DNA of 64,000 nt, taken from contig JAJDAC010000044.1 in assembly GCA_029262065.1 (NCBI GenBank), positions 66,827 to 130,826 of the forward strand, in the 5' to 3' direction. The position numbers and the translations under genes were made by a program. The stretch is from Candidatus Krumholzibacteriota bacterium. Its GTDB lineage: Bacteria > Krumholzibacteriota > Krumholzibacteriia > JAJRXK01. Shown in pieces: positions 37,448 through 55,034 of the stretch. The notes beneath the pieces were generated by a model. That model was not told the DNA's origin. It worked only from the letters and a program-made list of their open reading frames with translations, and did no database searches. The stretch's first letter is position 1; every line of letters begins with the position of its first letter.

Positions 37448-38134
37448 CTAGAATCGGCCCTTGACCGCACCCCAGGAGTGGCGCAGGACGGCAACCGCTG
37501 AGCATTGTCCCATGGGCGCATTCTCTGGGTCGGAGAATCGCGTCTCACCGGGATCGGGAGCACTCCGTATGTCCCAGGTTCCCAGGAACGTAACCCTCTC
37601 GATCGATAACCCGGTGGCCGTGACAGTCGGCACGTCCACGTCACCGGCGCTACCTGTCTCGTCCGGCAAGCCCCAGGTGTTCTGCTCACCGTAGATCACG
37701 ACGTCCAAAGGGGTCGCCACGGTGACGTCCACCGTACCCGCCGCGAACAACGCAACGCCGTCGGCTACCGGCCCCCCATTTTGGATGTCGGGATCAAAGT
37801 TCACAGTCTGTTGAAACGCAGGGCTACCGTTTGCCGGTTCCGAGAACGGACCGCCAACCACGAATCGCCCGCACGATGGAATGACACCATCGAGAACAAT
37901 GGTCGACCATCCGTAGTCGAAACCACCGGTGGCCAGAATCGCACCCGTCAAATCGATAGAGAGCGTCTCGCTGAAGTTCGTGAGCTCCACCCACTCGTAG
38001 CCGTCGTCCCCGCCGGGATGGCAGAAGTAGACTTCGGTGATGTGGACATTCTCGATACCGACCTGTGCCACGGCCGGTGAAAACCAGCACAGAATAAGGA
38101 GATAAGAGAGCTTGGCATACCAACGCGGGACCAT
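37448..38134 (-). CDS. secreted lamin-tail-domain (LTD) protein ending in ...SWGAVKGRF
   Basis: Signal peptide. LTD signature ITEVYFCHPGGDDGYEWVELTNFSETLSIDLTGAIL. C-terminal tail related to those of the proteins ending at 14979 and 41279. Confidence 0.65.
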   Translation of the reverse strand: MVPRWYAKLSYLLILCWFSPAVAQVGIENVHITEVYFCHPGGDDGYEWVELTNFSETLSIDLTGAILATGGFDYGWSTIVLDGVIPSCGRFVVGGPFSEPANGSPAFQQTVNFDPDIQNGGPVADGVALFAAGTVDVTVATPLDVVIYGEQNTWGLPDETGSAGDVDVPTVTATGLSIERVTFLGTWDIRSAPDPGETRFSDPENAPMGQCSAVAVLRHSWGAVKGRF

Positions 38135-38388
38135 CTAGCACCTCGCTCGTGTCTAGGGAACGGGCAACACGGGAGAGAGTAGCAAAATTCCGGGTTCCCA
38201 TCAGAGATAGATTCCGTTGGGGCCAATCGAGTAGCGAATCTTACCTTACCGCTTGCCATCCGCGCTGCCGTGTACTCGACGACCTTGTACGGCTCGCCTG
38301 TACCGAAGGTCGCCGGCGTCGAATCAGTGAGAAGCGAGCAATGTGTGATACCCTGGCAGCCTTCCCTCCTCGGCATCAGTAGATCGTT

Positions 38389-40173
38389 ATGGTTCTGCTT
38401 TCACTGGTCCTGTCTTTTGGAGTGGTCATGCTTGGGTTATCGCGCTATCTGCGTTCTTTCCTGCTGTTCGCGGCCTGTCTGGCCCAGGTTACGATCGCCA
38501 ATGCTCAGTGGCATCATCATACCCACGGCGTCCCCATTACGGTTGCGCAAGGGCTCCAGCTCCACCCCCGTGCCGTCGCCGACGGCTCGGGCGGGTTGAT
38601 CATCACGTGGCTGGATAATCGGGCGTCCCCGCTTTCTGCGCAGGTCTACGCTCAGCGGATCGACTCCGGGGGATTCGTGCAGTGGACCTACAACGGCGTT
38701 GGCGTATCGTCGGCCACCGCCGACGCTGCGAGTCTTGCCATGGTCACGGACGGTGCCGGGGGGGCGATGGTCGCGTGGAACGACGAGCGCAACGGAGACT
38801 TTGATATCTACGCGCAGAGAGTGAACGGAGCCGGTGCTTCCCTGTGGGGGATGGATGACCTCGGCCTATGTACCGAAGCCGGCGACCAGCAGACTCCGTT
38901 CATGATCAGGTCGGGCACGGACCGGGCTCTCCTCGCGTGGGGAGACTCACGTATTTCCGTGGCGGATCAGGACATCTATGCCCAGAGCACGAGCGACTCT
39001 GGCGTTCCCCAGTGGACCGCGAACGGCGTGTCGGTTTCGAGTGCTCCGAGTCGCCAGTGGTTACCGAGCGGAATGGTCCCGGACGGCGCCGGCGGCGCGA
39101 TCGTGACCTGGATGGACCTTCGTAACGGTGGCAACGCCTGGGATCTGTACACGCAACGGCTCGATAGCCAGGGTGTTCCTCAATGGGCGAACGACGGAGT
39201 GCTCCTGACGGGAGCGGCGTCGAGTCAGACCACCGCCGCCAGCATCCCCGACGGTGCCGGAGGGGCAATCACGGTGTGGCAAGACACACGTAACGGCCAG
39301 CAGGACATCTACATCCAAAGGGTCAACAGCGCCGGTGTTCCGCAATGGACGGCCGATGGTGTTCCCGTGGCTATTGCACCGCGAAACAAGTTCGATCCCA
39401 CGATCATTGCCGATGGAACCGGAGGCGCAATCGTCGCCTGGCATGATTACCGGAACTGGAACTTCAGTGCGAACGCGGACATCTACATTCAGCGCATCGA
39501 CGGCTCCGGCACGGCGCAGTGGACGTCCAACGGTATCGGTCTCTGTACCACACCGCGCCAACAGTACTATCCGCAATTGGCCGCAGACGGCTCGGGAGGC
39601 GCCTTCGTTGTTTGGGCCGATGAACGGGATGAGCCCGTCAGCAACTATTGGGATATCCGCGTCCAAGCCGTCGACGCGCAGGGTACGCCGCGTTGGCTCA
39701 ACGAAGAGGGCGATTTCAACGGGGTCATCATGTACCGGGGGTCGTATCAGGGACAGATTCACCCGCAGATCGTCTCGAATGAGCCGGGGCGGGCAATCGT
39801 GGTTTGGCATGGCTTTCGAAACAGCCCCAACGCGGACATCTTCGCGCAGCGCGTTGTTATCGGTGAGCTGACGGACGCACCCGAGACGGCGGAGCCCGCT
39901 TCGCTGGTGGTGCGAGGAATATCTCCGAATCCCTTCTCCAGTCATGGGTCCCTGGCGATCGACCTGAAGTCTGGCGCCACGGTTCGCGTGGAGCTCTTCG
40001 ATTTGGCCGGCCGAAGGGTTCGTTCCACCACGCGCCACGAGGCTGCCGGCACACACACCTTCGTTCTTGACGGCCGTGACGACGAGGGGCGCGCGCTTCC
40101 AAATGGAGTGTACTTCTGCCGGGTCCACGCCCAGGGAGAGACGCGCACCGCCAAGGTCGGAATCCTGCGGTAA
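38389..40173 (+). CDS. secreted beta-propeller-like repeat protein with a Por/T9SS-type CTD
   Basis: About 8 tandem ~50-aa repeats of the form DG(A/S)GGA(I/M)V(A/T)W.D.RNG..DIY.QR....G..QW..NGV. C-terminal ISPNPFSSHGSLAIDL...VELFDLAGRRV...FVLDGRDDEGRALPNGVYFCRV...KVGILR. Confidence 0.7.
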   Translation: MVLLSLVLSFGVVMLGLSRYLRSFLLFAACLAQVTIANAQWHHHTHGVPITVAQGLQLHPRAVADGSGGLIITWLDNRASPLSAQVYAQRIDSGGFVQWTYNGVGVSSATADAASLAMVTDGAGGAMVAWNDERNGDFDIYAQRVNGAGASLWGMDDLGLCTEAGDQQTPFMIRSGTDRALLAWGDSRISVADQDIYAQSTSDSGVPQWTANGVSVSSAPSRQWLPSGMVPDGAGGAIVTWMDLRNGGNAWDLYTQRLDSQGVPQWANDGVLLTGAASSQTTAASIPDGAGGAITVWQDTRNGQQDIYIQRVNSAGVPQWTADGVPVAIAPRNKFDPTIIADGTGGAIVAWHDYRNWNFSANADIYIQRIDGSGTAQWTSNGIGLCTTPRQQYYPQLAADGSGGAFVVWADERDEPVSNYWDIRVQAVDAQGTPRWLNEEGDFNGVIMYRGSYQGQIHPQIVSNEPGRAIVVWHGFRNSPNADIFAQRVVIGELTDAPETAEPASLVVRGISPNPFSSHGSLAIDLKSGATVRVELFDLAGRRVRSTTRHEAAGTHTFVLDGRDDEGRALPNGVYFCRVHAQGETRTAKVGILR

Positions 40174-40262
40174 CCGTGCAGGCACGTTCGTCAACAAGAC
40201 CGACAACATCGTGGTACAATGGACTCCCTCCCTCCCGAACCCAGTCCGAGAGGTCTTTCCTT

Positions 40263-53966: not shown

Positions 53967-53996
53967 AGCCTCCCGTTCCCTACGGGAGGCTTTTTC
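53967..53996 (+). terminator. rho-independent terminator AGCCTCCCGT-tccct-ACGGGAGGCT-TTTTC
   Basis: 10-bp stem, 5-nt loop, followed by T5, 75 nt after the stop at 53892. The stem is shared with the hairpin at 41337. Confidence 0.7.
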
Positions 53997-54287
53997 GTGC
54001 CCAATCCCAAACGTGTCTACTTTCGTAACCAGTTCATGATCGAAGAGTGGCCGGCCAAGATCCTTTGGTCTCAGACCAAGAAGTACTACCGCGTGTTCGG
54101 TCAGAACGTCCCGCGCATTGCCTACGGTTCCCGTCGCGAGGGATTCCGTGCGTCCGGATACTGTCACGATTGCAGCGCCATCCCCGGCGAGTTCCACGTT
54201 CCCGGCTGTGACATGGAGCGATGCCCAAGTTGCGGCGGCCAGGCCATCGTGTGCGGGTGCATGGACGATGGTGAACTCGACGCGTGA
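53997..54287 (+). CDS. small cysteine-rich protein (96 aa), possible zinc-ribbon. Uncertain gene.
   Basis: GTG start 7 nt after GGGAGG, which is itself the 3' arm of the upstream terminator. C-terminal CHDC...C...C..C....C.C pattern (YCHDCSAIPGEFHVPGCDMERCPSCGGQAIVCGCMDD). Confidence 0.35.
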   Translation: MPNPKRVYFRNQFMIEEWPAKILWSQTKKYYRVFGQNVPRIAYGSRREGFRASGYCHDCSAIPGEFHVPGCDMERCPSCGGQAIVCGCMDDGELDA

Positions 54288-54434
54288 AGCGATCGGTGGT
54301 ATGGTCAATCTAAGTACCACGATCCAACTACCTTCGATTTCCACGAAGTTGCCTGGTTCAGAAATAGTAGCGACTCCTTCACGCTACCCGCCAAGCACGA
54401 ACGCCCCGCCTACAAGAGGCGCGAAGGAGGCCTT

Positions 54435-55034
54435 GTGATTCGACGAAACTATCTGCCTTTGGTCTGCATGCTTGCCCTGGGAGTTGCGGCCTGCGGTTCC
54501 GACGATCCCGCTTCTTCGGATCCGGACCCAAAACTCACGATCATCCCAAATACCAACACGGTCTTGATCGGCCAAACCATCCAGTTTCAGGCCGAGAGGT
54601 TCGGAGAACCGGCGACCGTTACCTGGAGCGATTCCAGCCCAGCCATTGCTCAGGTTGGTACTTCCACCTCAGGCGTTGTCCGTGGCATCGAGGCTGGGCA
54701 GGCGGTCCTGAAAGCAACTCTCTTCAGCGACGACTCAGTCCAGGCAACTGCCACCGTCACTGTGGAGGCCCAACAGATCGATTCGATCGAAGTGTTTCCG
54801 AGTGAACTCACGCTGACTCTCAACGAACGGTTCACCCTCGGCACAATCATCAGTGGTGCACCCGGAGTCGATACGGACGTGACGTGGGAAACCGGCAGCA
54901 ACAATATTGCCAGTGTGAACACCAACGGAGAAGTACGAGGAACAGGAGTGGGACGTACACTGATCACCGCGATCGCGGACGGGGACCCCGGCAAGAAAGC
55001 GTTCTGCCTCGTCGAGGTCGTCTCGGGAAACTAG
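54435..55034 (+). CDS. lipoprotein with two bacterial Ig-like (Big_2) domains
   Basis: GTG start after AAGGAGG. Lipobox LALGVAAC. Two repeats resembling Big_2 (TVTWSDSSPAIAQVGTSTSGVVRGIEAGQAVLKATL... and VTWETGSNNIASVNTNGEVRGTGVGRTLITAIA). Confidence 0.65.
   Translation: MIRRNYLPLVCMLALGVAACGSDDPASSDPDPKLTIIPNTNTVLIGQTIQFQAERFGEPATVTWSDSSPAIAQVGTSTSGVVRGIEAGQAVLKATLFSDDSVQATATVTVEAQQIDSIEVFPSELTLTLNERFTLGTIISGAPGVDTDVTWETGSNNIASVNTNGEVRGTGVGRTLITAIADGDPGKKAFCLVEVVSGN

What the first reader, a model, noticed from the sequence alone, without database searches (positions are those of the whole stretch)
37448..55034. About 17-kb island of secreted and surface proteins, of which at least five share a nearly identical Por/T9SS-type C-terminal domain
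The island contains an LTD protein, a beta-propeller repeat protein, the VKARF-tail protein, a tail-fibre-like protein, a small CTD-only protein, an HExxH metalloprotease, a 2418-aa DUF11 giant, a triple-repeat protein and a Big_2 lipoprotein, encoded back-to-back. The CTDs share the pattern NPFNP.T.I.F.L......V.(V/L)(Y/F)D..GR.V..L......G.H...WDG.D..G..V.SGVY......K...L(L/V)K, with ~17-nt identical stretches at the DNA level (for example AACCCCTTCAACCCCCG at ~7142 and ~63837). This looks like a cargo locus for a Por/T9SS-like pathway in a non-Bacteroidota high-GC lineage. The windows also contain three further CTD proteins (4134, 15131, 60991).
Basis: partly seen in the sequence, partly recalled or inferred. 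Interest (0 to 1): 0.55.

Follow-up and report, generated by a model that had tools for sequence, protein, structure and literature searches.

The report
Secreted-protein cluster with two C-terminal tags
This is an ordinary chromosomal cluster of nine exported or surface proteins in an uncultured bacterium of the Bacteroidota-related FCB group: four end in a type IX secretion-type sorting domain, and three others end in a short, apparently undescribed C-terminal motif that may be a second sorting tag.

Summary
The gene cluster is real, but the finding overstates it. Only four island proteins carry the Por/T9SS-like C-terminal domain (CTD), at 38389, 43025, 43674 and 45094. Seven carry it in the whole window. 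The CTDs are 26-46% identical, not nearly identical. Shared DNA is limited to 17-37 nt encoding PNPFNPR.

The CTDs pass Pfam FlgD_ig (5 of 6 complete copies) and TIGR04183 (3 of 6). None passes PF18962. An AlphaFold model is a seven-strand Ig sandwich whose best solved match is the PorU CTD.

The closest Dxr relatives include a Candidatus Krumholzibacteriota MAG. That phylum belongs to the FCB superphylum, where T9SS is already expected. The region has uniform GC and no tRNA, phage or integrase signal. CTD proteins are scattered elsewhere, so this is not a dedicated cargo island. T9SS core genes could not be inventoried.

One new observation came out of the work. Three other island proteins, and one at 14335, end in a strictly C-terminal motif, [ST][WFV]Gx[VF][KR]xR[FY]. 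The motif recurs in relatives and metagenomes. On homologous LTD domains it occupies the position that PEP-CTERM or T9SS CTDs occupy in other proteins. No family model or paper matched it.

The parts
37448..38134 (-). Secreted single-domain LTD-like protein (228 aa) ending in the short tag ...HSWGAVKGRF (tag at 37451-37477)
   Evidence: Weak Pfam LTD match. 555 homologues in the full HMMER search. Signal peptide. Tail.
38389..40173 (+). Repeat protein of 594 aa (about 8 repeats of roughly 55 aa, probably a beta-propeller) with a T9SS-type CTD at 39925-40170
   Evidence: PF13860 38.9 bits, TIGR04183 34.6 bits. DNA repeat family D1.
40263..41279 (+). Secreted protein of 338 aa with no known domain, ending in ...TSFGAVKARF (tag at 41250-41276)
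   Evidence: No Pfam, NCBIfam or PHROG hit. Its only homologue, P0002 (49% identical), ends in ...SSFGALKARY.
41388..42992 (-). Secreted fibre-like protein (534 aa) with neither C-terminal tag
   Evidence: PDB 8OND, Bdellovibrio MAT fibre bd2133, E=6.6e-9 over residues 205-275. NF053851 16.7 bits, below its cut-off of 60. No PHROG hit.
43025..43561 (-). Small secreted protein (178 aa) that is little more than a CTD (CTD at 43028-43276)
   Evidence: PF13860 50.1 bits, TIGR04183 26.3 bits. Gene called as 178 aa on the Logan contig.
43674..45014 (-). NF038122-family metalloprotease (446 aa) with a CTD at 43677-43925
   Evidence: NF038122 206.9 bits (cut-off 80). PF13860 31.5 bits. TIGR04183 22.9 bits (cut-off 23).
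45094..52350 (-). Giant surface protein (2418 aa) with DUF11 repeats, CBM96/DNRLRE and CARDB, and a divergent CTD at 45097-45375
   Evidence: PF01345 219.6 bits, PF24517 60 bits, NF033679 97 bits. The CTD scores only 18.4 bits on PF13860 (below threshold) and matches the CTD part of NF033707 at 4e-7.
52594..53892 (+). Secreted protein made of three repeats of about 125 aa, ending in ...ISFGDFRSRFGGQ (tag at 53854-53889)
   Evidence: Translation. Tail. No family hit apart from a marginal PHROG match of unknown function.
54435..55034 (+). Lipoprotein with two Big_2 domains and neither C-terminal tag
   Evidence: PF02368 46.2 bits in 2 stretches. Lipobox VAAC.
4134..7388 (+). CTD protein of 1084 aa outside the island (CTD at 7137-7385). 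Paralogue of the gene at 60991.
   Evidence: PF13860 35.7 bits. TIGR04183 20.8 bits. DNA repeat D8.
14335..14979 (+). Secreted protein of 214 aa, weakly similar to choice-of-anchor R and DUF7901, ending in ...TSVGQVKARYQDR (tag at 14941-14976)
15131..17515 (-). Peptidase_C13-like (clan CD; GGHG and QACHSGS motifs) secreted protein of 794 aa with a CTD at 15134-15382
   Evidence: PF01650 32.7 bits, PF13860 29.3 bits. TIGR04183 23.2 bits. NF033707 (PorU) matches only over the CTD. A 64% homologue, P0006, exists.
60991..64000 (+). Paralogue of the gene at 4134, cut off by the window end. Its CTD begins at 63832.

Best explanation
The region is a native chromosomal cluster of genes for exported cell-surface or extracellular proteins. 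They include an adhesin-like giant, a fibre, Ig-domain and LTD proteins and a metalloprotease. The host is an uncultured FCB-superphylum bacterium, probably Krumholzibacteriota or a sister lineage.

Four of the nine proteins (seven in the window) end in a FlgD_ig-class, T9SS type-A-like CTD. The most likely mechanism has three steps. First, the Sec system exports the protein to the periplasm using the N-terminal signal peptide. Second, a type IX translocon (SprA/Sov with PorV) recognises the C-terminal Ig-like domain and moves the protein across the outer membrane. Third, the protein is released, or a PorU-like sortase attaches it to the surface.

What is shown: the CTD family signature, its strictly C-terminal position on unrelated signal-peptide proteins, its fold, and the FCB affiliation.

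What is inferred: the existence of the T9SS machinery in this genome, and CTD cleavage or attachment.

The cluster is a local concentration in a genome that is generally rich in such proteins. It is not a dedicated or mobile cargo island.
For: CTD family signature:
- PF13860 is above its gathering score in the proteins at 38389, 43025, 43674, 4134 and 15131.
- TIGR04183 is above its cut-off at 38389, 43025 and 15131, and within 0.1 bit at 43674.
- All seven copies sit at the extreme C-terminus of otherwise unrelated proteins with N-terminal signal peptides.
- The alignment shows the PNPF(N)P start, G-x-Y and a terminal K/R-x-x-[LIV][LIV]-K/R.

Fold:
- The AF2 model (pLDDT 84) has seven beta-strands.
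- Its best solved matches are the PorU CTD 6ZA2 (TM 0.69-0.72), then FlgD, then the mirolase, PorZ and RemZ CTDs.
- The sequence profile hits the PorU, RgpB and PorZ CTDs at 6e-4 to 3e-3.

Lineage:
- Dxr is 62% identical to a Candidatus Krumholzibacteriota MAG and 67% to an unnamed MAG. The next best hits are 49% or lower.
- Krumholzibacteriota belongs to the FCB superphylum (PMC10936416).
- T9SS is reported or suspected in several non-Bacteroidota FCB phyla and has been studied experimentally in Fibrobacter (PMC11285876).

Native, not mobile: GC is uniform, there is no tRNA, the flanks are housekeeping genes, and there is no meaningful phage match.

Scattered CTD genes: 4134, 15131 and 60991 in the window, and 4 of 18 genes in relative L103.
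Against: - PF18962 (Por_Secre_tail) is below its gathering score in every copy (best 22.5 against 27).
- At sequence level the profile is closer to the flagellar FlgD Ig domain (1e-12) than to Bacteroidota CTDs (about 1e-3).
- No T9SS core gene was seen in the 64-kb window or among the precomputed Pfam annotations of L103 and L107.
- The rest of the genome could not be examined.
- I found no paper reporting T9SS in Krumholzibacteriota.
- The only candidate sortase, the C13-like protein at 15131, is not a PorU or C25 match outside its CTD.
Confidence: 0.7

Rival explanations
1. The C-terminal domain is only a FlgD-type Ig module with a structural or adhesive role, or it belongs to another, unknown surface-anchoring system. 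On this reading the organism has no T9SS.
For: The profile hits the FlgD Ig domains 7EH9 and 7BHQ at about 1e-12, far better than T9SS CTDs. PF18962 never reaches threshold. No T9SS gene is seen in the DNA available.
Against: None of the seven proteins has any other flagellar FlgD signature, and all are unrelated secreted proteins. The domain is always the last one. It carries the PNPF start and the basic terminal strand typical of type-A CTDs, whereas the FlgD similarity covers only profile positions 11-77. TIGR04183 passes in three copies. The best structural match is the PorU CTD. The lineage is FCB.
Confidence: 0.15
2. The 17-kb region is a horizontally acquired or phage-derived island, and the 'tail-fibre-like' gene is its hallmark.
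For: It contains a fibre protein, and its gene content is poorly conserved: proteins 40263 and 14335 have only 0-1 homologues among 5.8 billion sequences.
Against: There is no GC or skew break and no tRNA. No integrase, transposase or phage family was found, and PHROGs gave nothing beyond one marginal hit of unknown function. The fibre resembles cellular Bdellovibrio MAT fibres, not phage proteins. The same two C-terminal tags occur on genes outside the region.
Confidence: 0.03
3. The nine genes form a dedicated, co-regulated T9SS cargo locus.
For: Nine consecutive exported proteins, seven of which carry a C-terminal tag. A similar CTD / tail-LTD / CTD arrangement is seen in the unrelated metagenome contig L107.
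Against: The genes are on both strands in at least four transcription units. Three more CTD genes and one more tail gene are scattered among housekeeping genes in the same window. The only homologue of gene 40263 sits in a different context. There is no regulator or machinery gene inside the block.
Confidence: 0.12

Closest known systems
T9SS type A C-terminal sorting domain (TIGR04183 / PF18962) of Bacteroidota cargo such as RgpB, PorU and PorZ
   Same: About 85 aa at the extreme C-terminus of Sec-exported proteins with unrelated passenger domains. PNP-type start, G-x-Y, and a basic terminal strand. Seven-strand Ig sandwich whose best structural match is the PorU CTD. TIGR04183 is above its cut-off in three copies.
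   Different: PF18962 is below threshold in all copies, and sequence identity to Bacteroidota CTDs is about 20%. The host is a non-Bacteroidota FCB lineage for which no T9SS has been described. The machinery and CTD cleavage were not shown.
FlgD Ig-like domain (PF13860)
   Same: The strongest sequence-profile similarity (E about 1e-12 to FlgD of Salmonella), with Pfam gathering scores passed in five copies. Same Ig fold.
   Different: FlgD is a flagellar hook-cap protein in which the Ig domain is internal. Here the domain is terminal, carries the T9SS-type PNPF start and K/R end, and sits on proteases, adhesins and repeat proteins.
PEP-CTERM/exosortase and other 'choice-of-anchor' C-terminal sorting signals
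   Same: The short tag [ST][WF]Gx[IV]Kx[RL][FY] occupies the same position, after the same LTD-like passenger domain, that PEP-CTERM or a T9SS CTD occupies in other homologues. It is found on several unrelated passenger domains.
   Different: The tag has no transmembrane helix and no basic cluster after a helix. It is only about 9-12 residues long. No exosortase-like partner is known.
C-terminal beta-signal of outer-membrane beta-barrel proteins (terminal aromatic residue, alternating hydrophobic residues)
   Same: Strictly C-terminal, ending in an aromatic residue (F or Y), often with a basic penultimate residue, and with an alternating V/I, small and F/Y pattern.
   Different: The passengers are soluble-type domains (LTD, repeat domains), not barrels. 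The glycine is one position off the usual beta-signal register. Up to 3-4 residues may follow the aromatic residue.
Bdellovibrio mosaic adhesive trimer (MAT) fibres (bd2133, PDB 8OND)
   Same: Gene 41388-42992 shares a segment of about 70 residues (E=6.6e-9) and has a weak match to the N-terminal domain model.
   Different: NF053851 scores far below its cut-off (16.7 against 60). The rest of the protein is unmatched.
PorU, the T9SS sortase (NF033707, peptidase C25)
   Same: Gene 15131-17515 is a clan CD cysteine-peptidase-like protein that keeps a CTD, as PorU does.
   Different: Its catalytic region matches Peptidase_C13, not C25. NF033707 matches only over the CTD. It is 794 aa against about 1100-1160 aa for PorU.

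Membership tests
T9SS type A CTD (TIGR04183 / PF18962) | NCBIfam TIGR04183 score at or above the curated cut-off (23 bits) | tested here: inconclusive
   34.6 (38389), 26.3 (43025) and 23.2 (15131) pass. 22.9 (43674) and 20.8 (4134) fall short. The giant protein gives no hit. The copy at 60991 is truncated.
T9SS type A CTD (TIGR04183 / PF18962) | Pfam PF18962 Por_Secre_tail at or above its gathering score (27 bits) | tested here: not met
   Best scores are 22.5, 19.2 and 18.3 bits. The other copies give no hit.
T9SS type A CTD (TIGR04183 / PF18962) | Domain at the extreme C-terminus of proteins that also carry an N-terminal Sec signal peptide, on diverse passenger domains | tested here: met
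   7 of 7 copies are terminal. All have an N-terminal hydrophobic signal region. The passengers are unrelated.
T9SS type A CTD (TIGR04183 / PF18962) | Seven-strand Ig-like beta-sandwich resembling solved CTDs | tested here: met
   AF2 pLDDT 84 with 7 strands. The Foldseek top hit is the PorU CTD 6ZA2, and the mirolase, PorZ and RemZ CTDs also appear. The 3+4 sandwich architecture is described in PMC11285876.
T9SS type A CTD (TIGR04183 / PF18962) | T9SS core machinery encoded in the same genome (SprA/Sov, PorV, PorU, PorK/L/M/N) | not testable with these tools
   None is in the 64-kb window. The source MAG is not in genome contigs. Only short Logan contigs were retrievable.
T9SS type A CTD (TIGR04183 / PF18962) | CTD removed by PorU and cargo released or linked to anionic LPS | not testable with these tools
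   This needs proteomics or biochemistry.
FlgD_ig (PF13860) | Pfam score at or above the gathering score (27 bits) | tested here: met
   38.9, 50.1, 31.5, 35.7 and 29.3 bits. The giant protein scores 18.4 and fails.
Flagellar hook-cap protein FlgD | Full-length FlgD equivalog match, with the Ig domain internal to a FlgD protein | tested here: not met
   NCBIfam FlgD equivalogs score 16-38 bits against cut-offs of 230-383, and only over the Ig part.
PorU sortase (NF033707 / Peptidase C25), for gene 15131-17515 | Full-length NF033707 match or a C25 catalytic domain | tested here: not met
   NF033707 scores 26 bits against a cut-off of 420, over model positions 998-1076 only. Pfam gives Peptidase_C13, not C25. 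phmmer against the PDB does not find 6ZA2. The AF2 model was unusable (pLDDT 34.6).
NF038122 metalloprotease family, for gene 43674-45014 | NCBIfam score at or above the cut-off (80 bits), full-length domain | tested here: met
   206.9 bits, model positions 2-274 of 274.
PEP-CTERM and related exosortase signals, for the short tail | Motif followed by a transmembrane helix and a basic cluster | tested here: not met
   The tails are 9-13 residues with no hydrophobic helix. NCBIfam finds nothing on the tails at E up to 10.
Genomic island or prophage | Compositional break, tRNA or integrase at the borders, phage gene families | tested here: not met
   Pfam on the flanking genes shows housekeeping functions.

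The most novel reading that the evidence does not exclude
The strictly C-terminal motif [ST]-[WFV]-G-x-[VIF]-[KR]-x-[RL]-[FY], followed by 0-4 residues, may be a previously undescribed short sorting or anchoring tag of a group of uncultured high-GC, FCB-like bacteria. Examples are ...SWGAVKGRF, ...SFGAVKARF and ...TWGTIKALYR. It would be used alongside the T9SS-type CTD in the same genomes, often on neighbouring genes.

On homologous passenger domains it stands in the position that PEP-CTERM or a T9SS CTD occupies in other proteins. This implies either a dedicated but still unknown recognition machinery, or a second minimal signal read by the T9SS or by an Omp85-type insertase.
Probability: 0.35. 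Interest if true: 0.65.

Novelty: new member of a known kind. Interest (0 to 1): 0.38.

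Why it matters
The CTD result extends the evidence that T9SS-type cargo signals, of the FlgD_ig subclass, are used heavily outside Bacteroidota. Here the host is a Krumholzibacteriota-like lineage for which no secretion biology is described. That is useful for annotating surface proteomes of FCB candidate phyla, but it was expected.

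The short C-terminal tag would matter more if it is real. A 9-residue, helix-free tag that replaces PEP-CTERM or a T9SS CTD on the same passenger domain would point to an unrecognised protein-sorting route in diderm bacteria. It would also give a simple handle for predicting surface proteins in these uncultured lineages.

Tried and rejected
- An exact 51-mer search of genome contigs for the source genome found nothing. The window comes from an NCBI MAG contig of 136,195 bp and from Logan run SRR15505514, but only 9.6-12.9-kb Logan contigs lying inside the window were retrievable. No T9SS gene inventory was therefore possible.
- Literature searches for T9SS in Krumholzibacteriota, Delphibacteria or Latescibacteria found nothing.
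- Word-index homologue searches returned almost only the query itself: 40263 gave 1 homologue, 14335 gave 0, and 15131 gave 1 full-length homologue.
- AF2 of the C13-like protein with a 2-sequence alignment failed (pLDDT 34.6). PorU-likeness could not be tested by fold.
- Searches for the tail motif in NCBIfam (E up to 10) and in full-text papers found nothing relevant.
- I looked for a conserved neighbour, a candidate machinery gene, next to tail genes in four metagenome contigs. Only housekeeping genes turned up: an STK-TPR kinase, Mfd, a PPIase, BatA, AcrB/OEP and transporters. A small Omp85 gene lies 7 kb from the tail gene in L107, but that is a single case.
- I rejected recent duplication or a DNA cassette as the cause of CTD similarity.
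- I rejected a prophage or genomic island.
- I rejected the idea that tail genes are CTD genes truncated by a stop codon. No CTD-like ORF lies downstream of them, and the motif is never internal.

Full report
**1. What is in the region**

ORF listing and translation give nine consecutive genes between 37448 and 55034:
- an LTD-like protein, 37448-38134 (-)
- a repeat protein of roughly 55-aa units, 38389-40173 (+)
- a protein with no family match, probable start 40263, ending at 41279 (+)
- a fibre-like protein, 41388-42992 (-)
- a small protein that is little more than a C-terminal domain, 43025-43561 (-)
- a metalloprotease, 43674-45014 (-)
- a 2418-aa giant, 45094-52350 (-)
- a three-repeat protein, 52594-53892 (+)
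- a Big_2 lipoprotein, 54435-55034 (+)

- LTD is weak, at 24 bits against a gathering score of 34.3.
- The metalloprotease matches NF038122 at 206.9 bits.
- The giant protein matches DUF11 at 219.6 bits, CBM96/DNRLRE, and CARDB.
- The lipoprotein has two Big_2 stretches at 46.2 bits.

The fibre-like protein matches the solved Bdellovibrio MAT fibre bd2133 (8OND, E=6.6e-9). It has no phage-family hit.

All nine proteins, plus the other tagged proteins in the window, have an N-terminal hydrophobic signal region or a lipobox. Four of the five cytoplasmic controls from the same window do not.

**2. The shared C-terminal domain**

An HMM built from the window's own copies finds exactly seven CTDs in the 64 kb. 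Four are in the island (38389, 43025, 43674, 45094) and three are outside it (4134, 15131, 60991, the last one truncated by the window end). The same HMM finds none in about 1.3 Mb of 78 unrelated loci fetched with Dxr.

Pairwise identity is 26-46%, so 'nearly identical' is wrong. 'At least five in the island' is also wrong.

DNA-level similarity between CTD-coding regions never exceeds 37 nt around the PNPFNPR codons. The copies are therefore old paralogous modules, not a recently spread cassette.

The curated models give these results:
- PF13860 FlgD_ig passes its gathering score in five of six complete copies.
- TIGR04183 passes in three, and a fourth is 0.1 bit short.
- PF18962 gives only sub-threshold hits.

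A profile of the six complete copies (A1) hits solved FlgD Ig domains best, at about 1e-12 over profile positions 11-77. It then hits the CTDs of PorU, RgpB and PorZ at 6e-4 to 3e-3, and two F. johnsoniae CTD chains weakly (8GLK, E=0.05, nearly full length; 8GLJ, E=0.1, N-terminal part only).

AlphaFold2 on that alignment gives a confident seven-strand sandwich (pLDDT 84). Its best Foldseek match in the PDB is the CTD of PorU (6ZA2, TM 0.69-0.72). FlgD follows, then the mirolase, PorZ and RemZ CTDs.

The domain is always terminal. It starts with PNPF(N)P, has G-x-Y, and ends in K/R-x-x-[LIV][LIV]-K/R. From general knowledge, these are the hallmarks of type-A CTDs and not of FlgD. I therefore file it as a FlgD_ig-subclass, T9SS type-A-like sorting domain.

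**3. Whose genome, and is it an island?**

The exact sequence is not in the GTDB representative set. It is on an NCBI MAG contig of 136,195 bp and in the Logan assembly of SRR15505514.

The best Dxr relatives are an unnamed MAG (67%) and a Candidatus Krumholzibacteriota MAG (62%). Everything else is 49% or lower. Krumholzibacteriota is an FCB-superphylum lineage (PMC10936416).

[quoted passage not shown] It has been studied experimentally in Fibrobacter succinogenes (PMC11285876; also PMC11205867). I found nothing specific to Krumholzibacteriota.

GC is flat at 0.58-0.65, and there is no tRNA. The flanks are a molybdoenzyme / xanthine-dehydrogenase cluster on one side and a beta-lactamase plus a Ser/Thr kinase on the other.

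The genes lie on both strands. A 64% homologue of the C13-CTD protein sits in a relative's contig where 4 of 18 genes end in the same CTD.

So the region is a native local concentration of surface-protein genes in a lineage that uses this CTD very frequently. It is not a mobile or dedicated cargo locus.

**4. T9SS machinery**

No T9SS core gene is in the window or in the annotated relatives' loci.

The only candidate is 15131-17515, a clan-CD cysteine-peptidase-like protein (GGHG ... QACHSGS) that itself carries a CTD, as PorU does. However, its catalytic region matches Peptidase_C13, not C25. The PorU model NF033707 matches only over the CTD. The AF2 model was too poor to use.

The decisive test, a whole-genome inventory, could not be run with the tools available.

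**5.

Three of the five island proteins that lack the CTD end in a shared motif:
- ...HSWGAVKGRF (37448)
- ...TSFGAVKARF (40263)
- ...ISFGDFRSRFGGQ (52594)

A fourth protein outside the island, 14335, ends in ...TSVGQVKARYQDR.

The four passenger domains are unrelated to one another, and all have signal peptides. The codons differ between copies, so conservation is at the protein level.

The motif also appears in relatives and in metagenomes:
- The only homologue of 40263 (49% identical) ends in ...SSFGALKARY.
- The closest relative's locus, L003, has an unrelated secreted protein of about 150 aa ending in ...ESWGTVKGRF.
- A degenerate DNA pattern for [WF]G[AT]VK[AG]R[FY]-stop, scanned over the metagenome collection, gave 18 matches. 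Seven of them, all on contigs with GC 0.65-0.74, are the exact ends of long ORFs, with signal peptides wherever the N-terminus is present. They represent about five distinct proteins, because L088/L100 and L091/L101 are near-duplicate pairs. The other 11 matches are short-ORF noise.
- A regular expression for the tail hits 6 of 640 ORFs in lineage loci, one of which (L094) was fetched through that scan, against 1 of 3495 in control loci.
- The motif never occurs internally, apart from one chance match in an unrelated locus.

A full HMMER search with the LTD protein gave 555 hits. The same LTD-like domain of about 170 aa is followed by different endings in different proteins:
- the short tag (P0025 ...TWGTIKALYR, P0024 ...SLDALKSVYR, P0027 ...SWGHWKSRFGN, P0028 ...NWGFIKSRF)
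- PEP-CTERM-like signals (about 13 proteins)
- a T9SS/FlgD_ig CTD (3 proteins)
- nothing

This 'choice of anchor' pattern is the classical signature of a modular sorting signal.

Tag genes and CTD genes co-occur on the same contigs in four independent cases: the window, L094, L105 and L107. In L105 and L107 they are immediate neighbours. No protein carries both tags.

NCBIfam finds nothing on the tails even at E up to 10, and text searches found no description. No conserved neighbouring gene emerged.

The mechanism is unknown. My best guess is a terminal beta-strand that docks onto an outer-membrane or periplasmic receptor, since the alternating V/I, small and F/Y pattern with K and R between is beta-signal-like. 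This is inference only.

**6. Verdict**

The CTD part is a new member of a known kind: T9SS-type cargo in a further FCB lineage. It is of modest interest.

The short C-terminal tag is the part worth following up. I put about 0.35 on it being a genuine and undescribed sorting or anchoring signal.

Noticed in passing
window 37451-37477 (-), 41250-41276 (+), 53854-53889 (+), 14941-14976 (+); also L003:1059-1103 (-), L094:8766-8792, L084, L088/L100, L090, L091/L101, L105, L107:2681-3463: A strictly C-terminal short motif, [ST][WFV]Gx[VIF][KR]x[RL][FY] followed by 0-4 residues, sits on unrelated secreted proteins. It co-occurs with CTD genes on the same contigs. On homologous LTD domains it stands where PEP-CTERM or a T9SS CTD stands in other proteins. 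No NCBIfam or literature match was found.
   Followed up: partly
window 15131-17515 (-): A clan-CD (Peptidase_C13-like, GGHG/QACHSGS) secreted protein that itself carries the CTD, conserved at 64% in a relative (P0006, L103). It could be ordinary cargo or a divergent PorU-like transpeptidase. Sequence tests did not support PorU, and the AF2 model failed.
   Followed up: partly
window 4134-7388 (+) and 60991-64000 (+): Two large paralogous CTD proteins of more than 1000 aa with no recognised passenger domain. They have similar N-termini (FCLYGGPGSLEGKFQT and FYLYGAPGTLDGTFQT) and an 85%-identical 34-nt stretch.
   Followed up: no
window 11630-14260 (+) and 56275-58899 (+); L094:1269-3935: Paralogous Ser/Thr kinase plus TPR proteins of about 875 aa flank the secreted-protein genes. 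A third copy lies next to the tail gene in metagenome contig L094, which suggests that L094 comes from a related lineage.
   Followed up: no
window 53997-54287 (+): A small Cys-rich ORF of 96 aa (...CHDC...CPSCGG...CGC...) with no signal peptide, called as a gene on the Logan contig. It sits between the three-repeat gene and the Big_2 gene and is the only non-exported product inside the block.
   Followed up: no
window 22731-37447: A large cluster on the minus strand: two xanthine-dehydrogenase/aldehyde-oxidase-type molybdoenzymes, two CN-hydrolases, an amidohydrolase, PALP enzymes, and XdhC, MobA and a sulfite-oxidase-like protein. It is probably a purine or N-heterocycle catabolic locus immediately upstream of the island.
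   Followed up: no
L107:10449-11723 (-): A short Omp85-family protein (424 aa, one weak POTRA match) lies 7 kb from a tail-tagged LTD gene that is itself flanked by two CTD genes. This is a single observation, and no link has been shown.
   Followed up: no
L003:1059-1517 (-): A small secreted protein with an N-terminal C-x-C after the signal peptide, reminiscent of TIMP/NTR modules, carrying the same short C-terminal tag.
   Followed up: no
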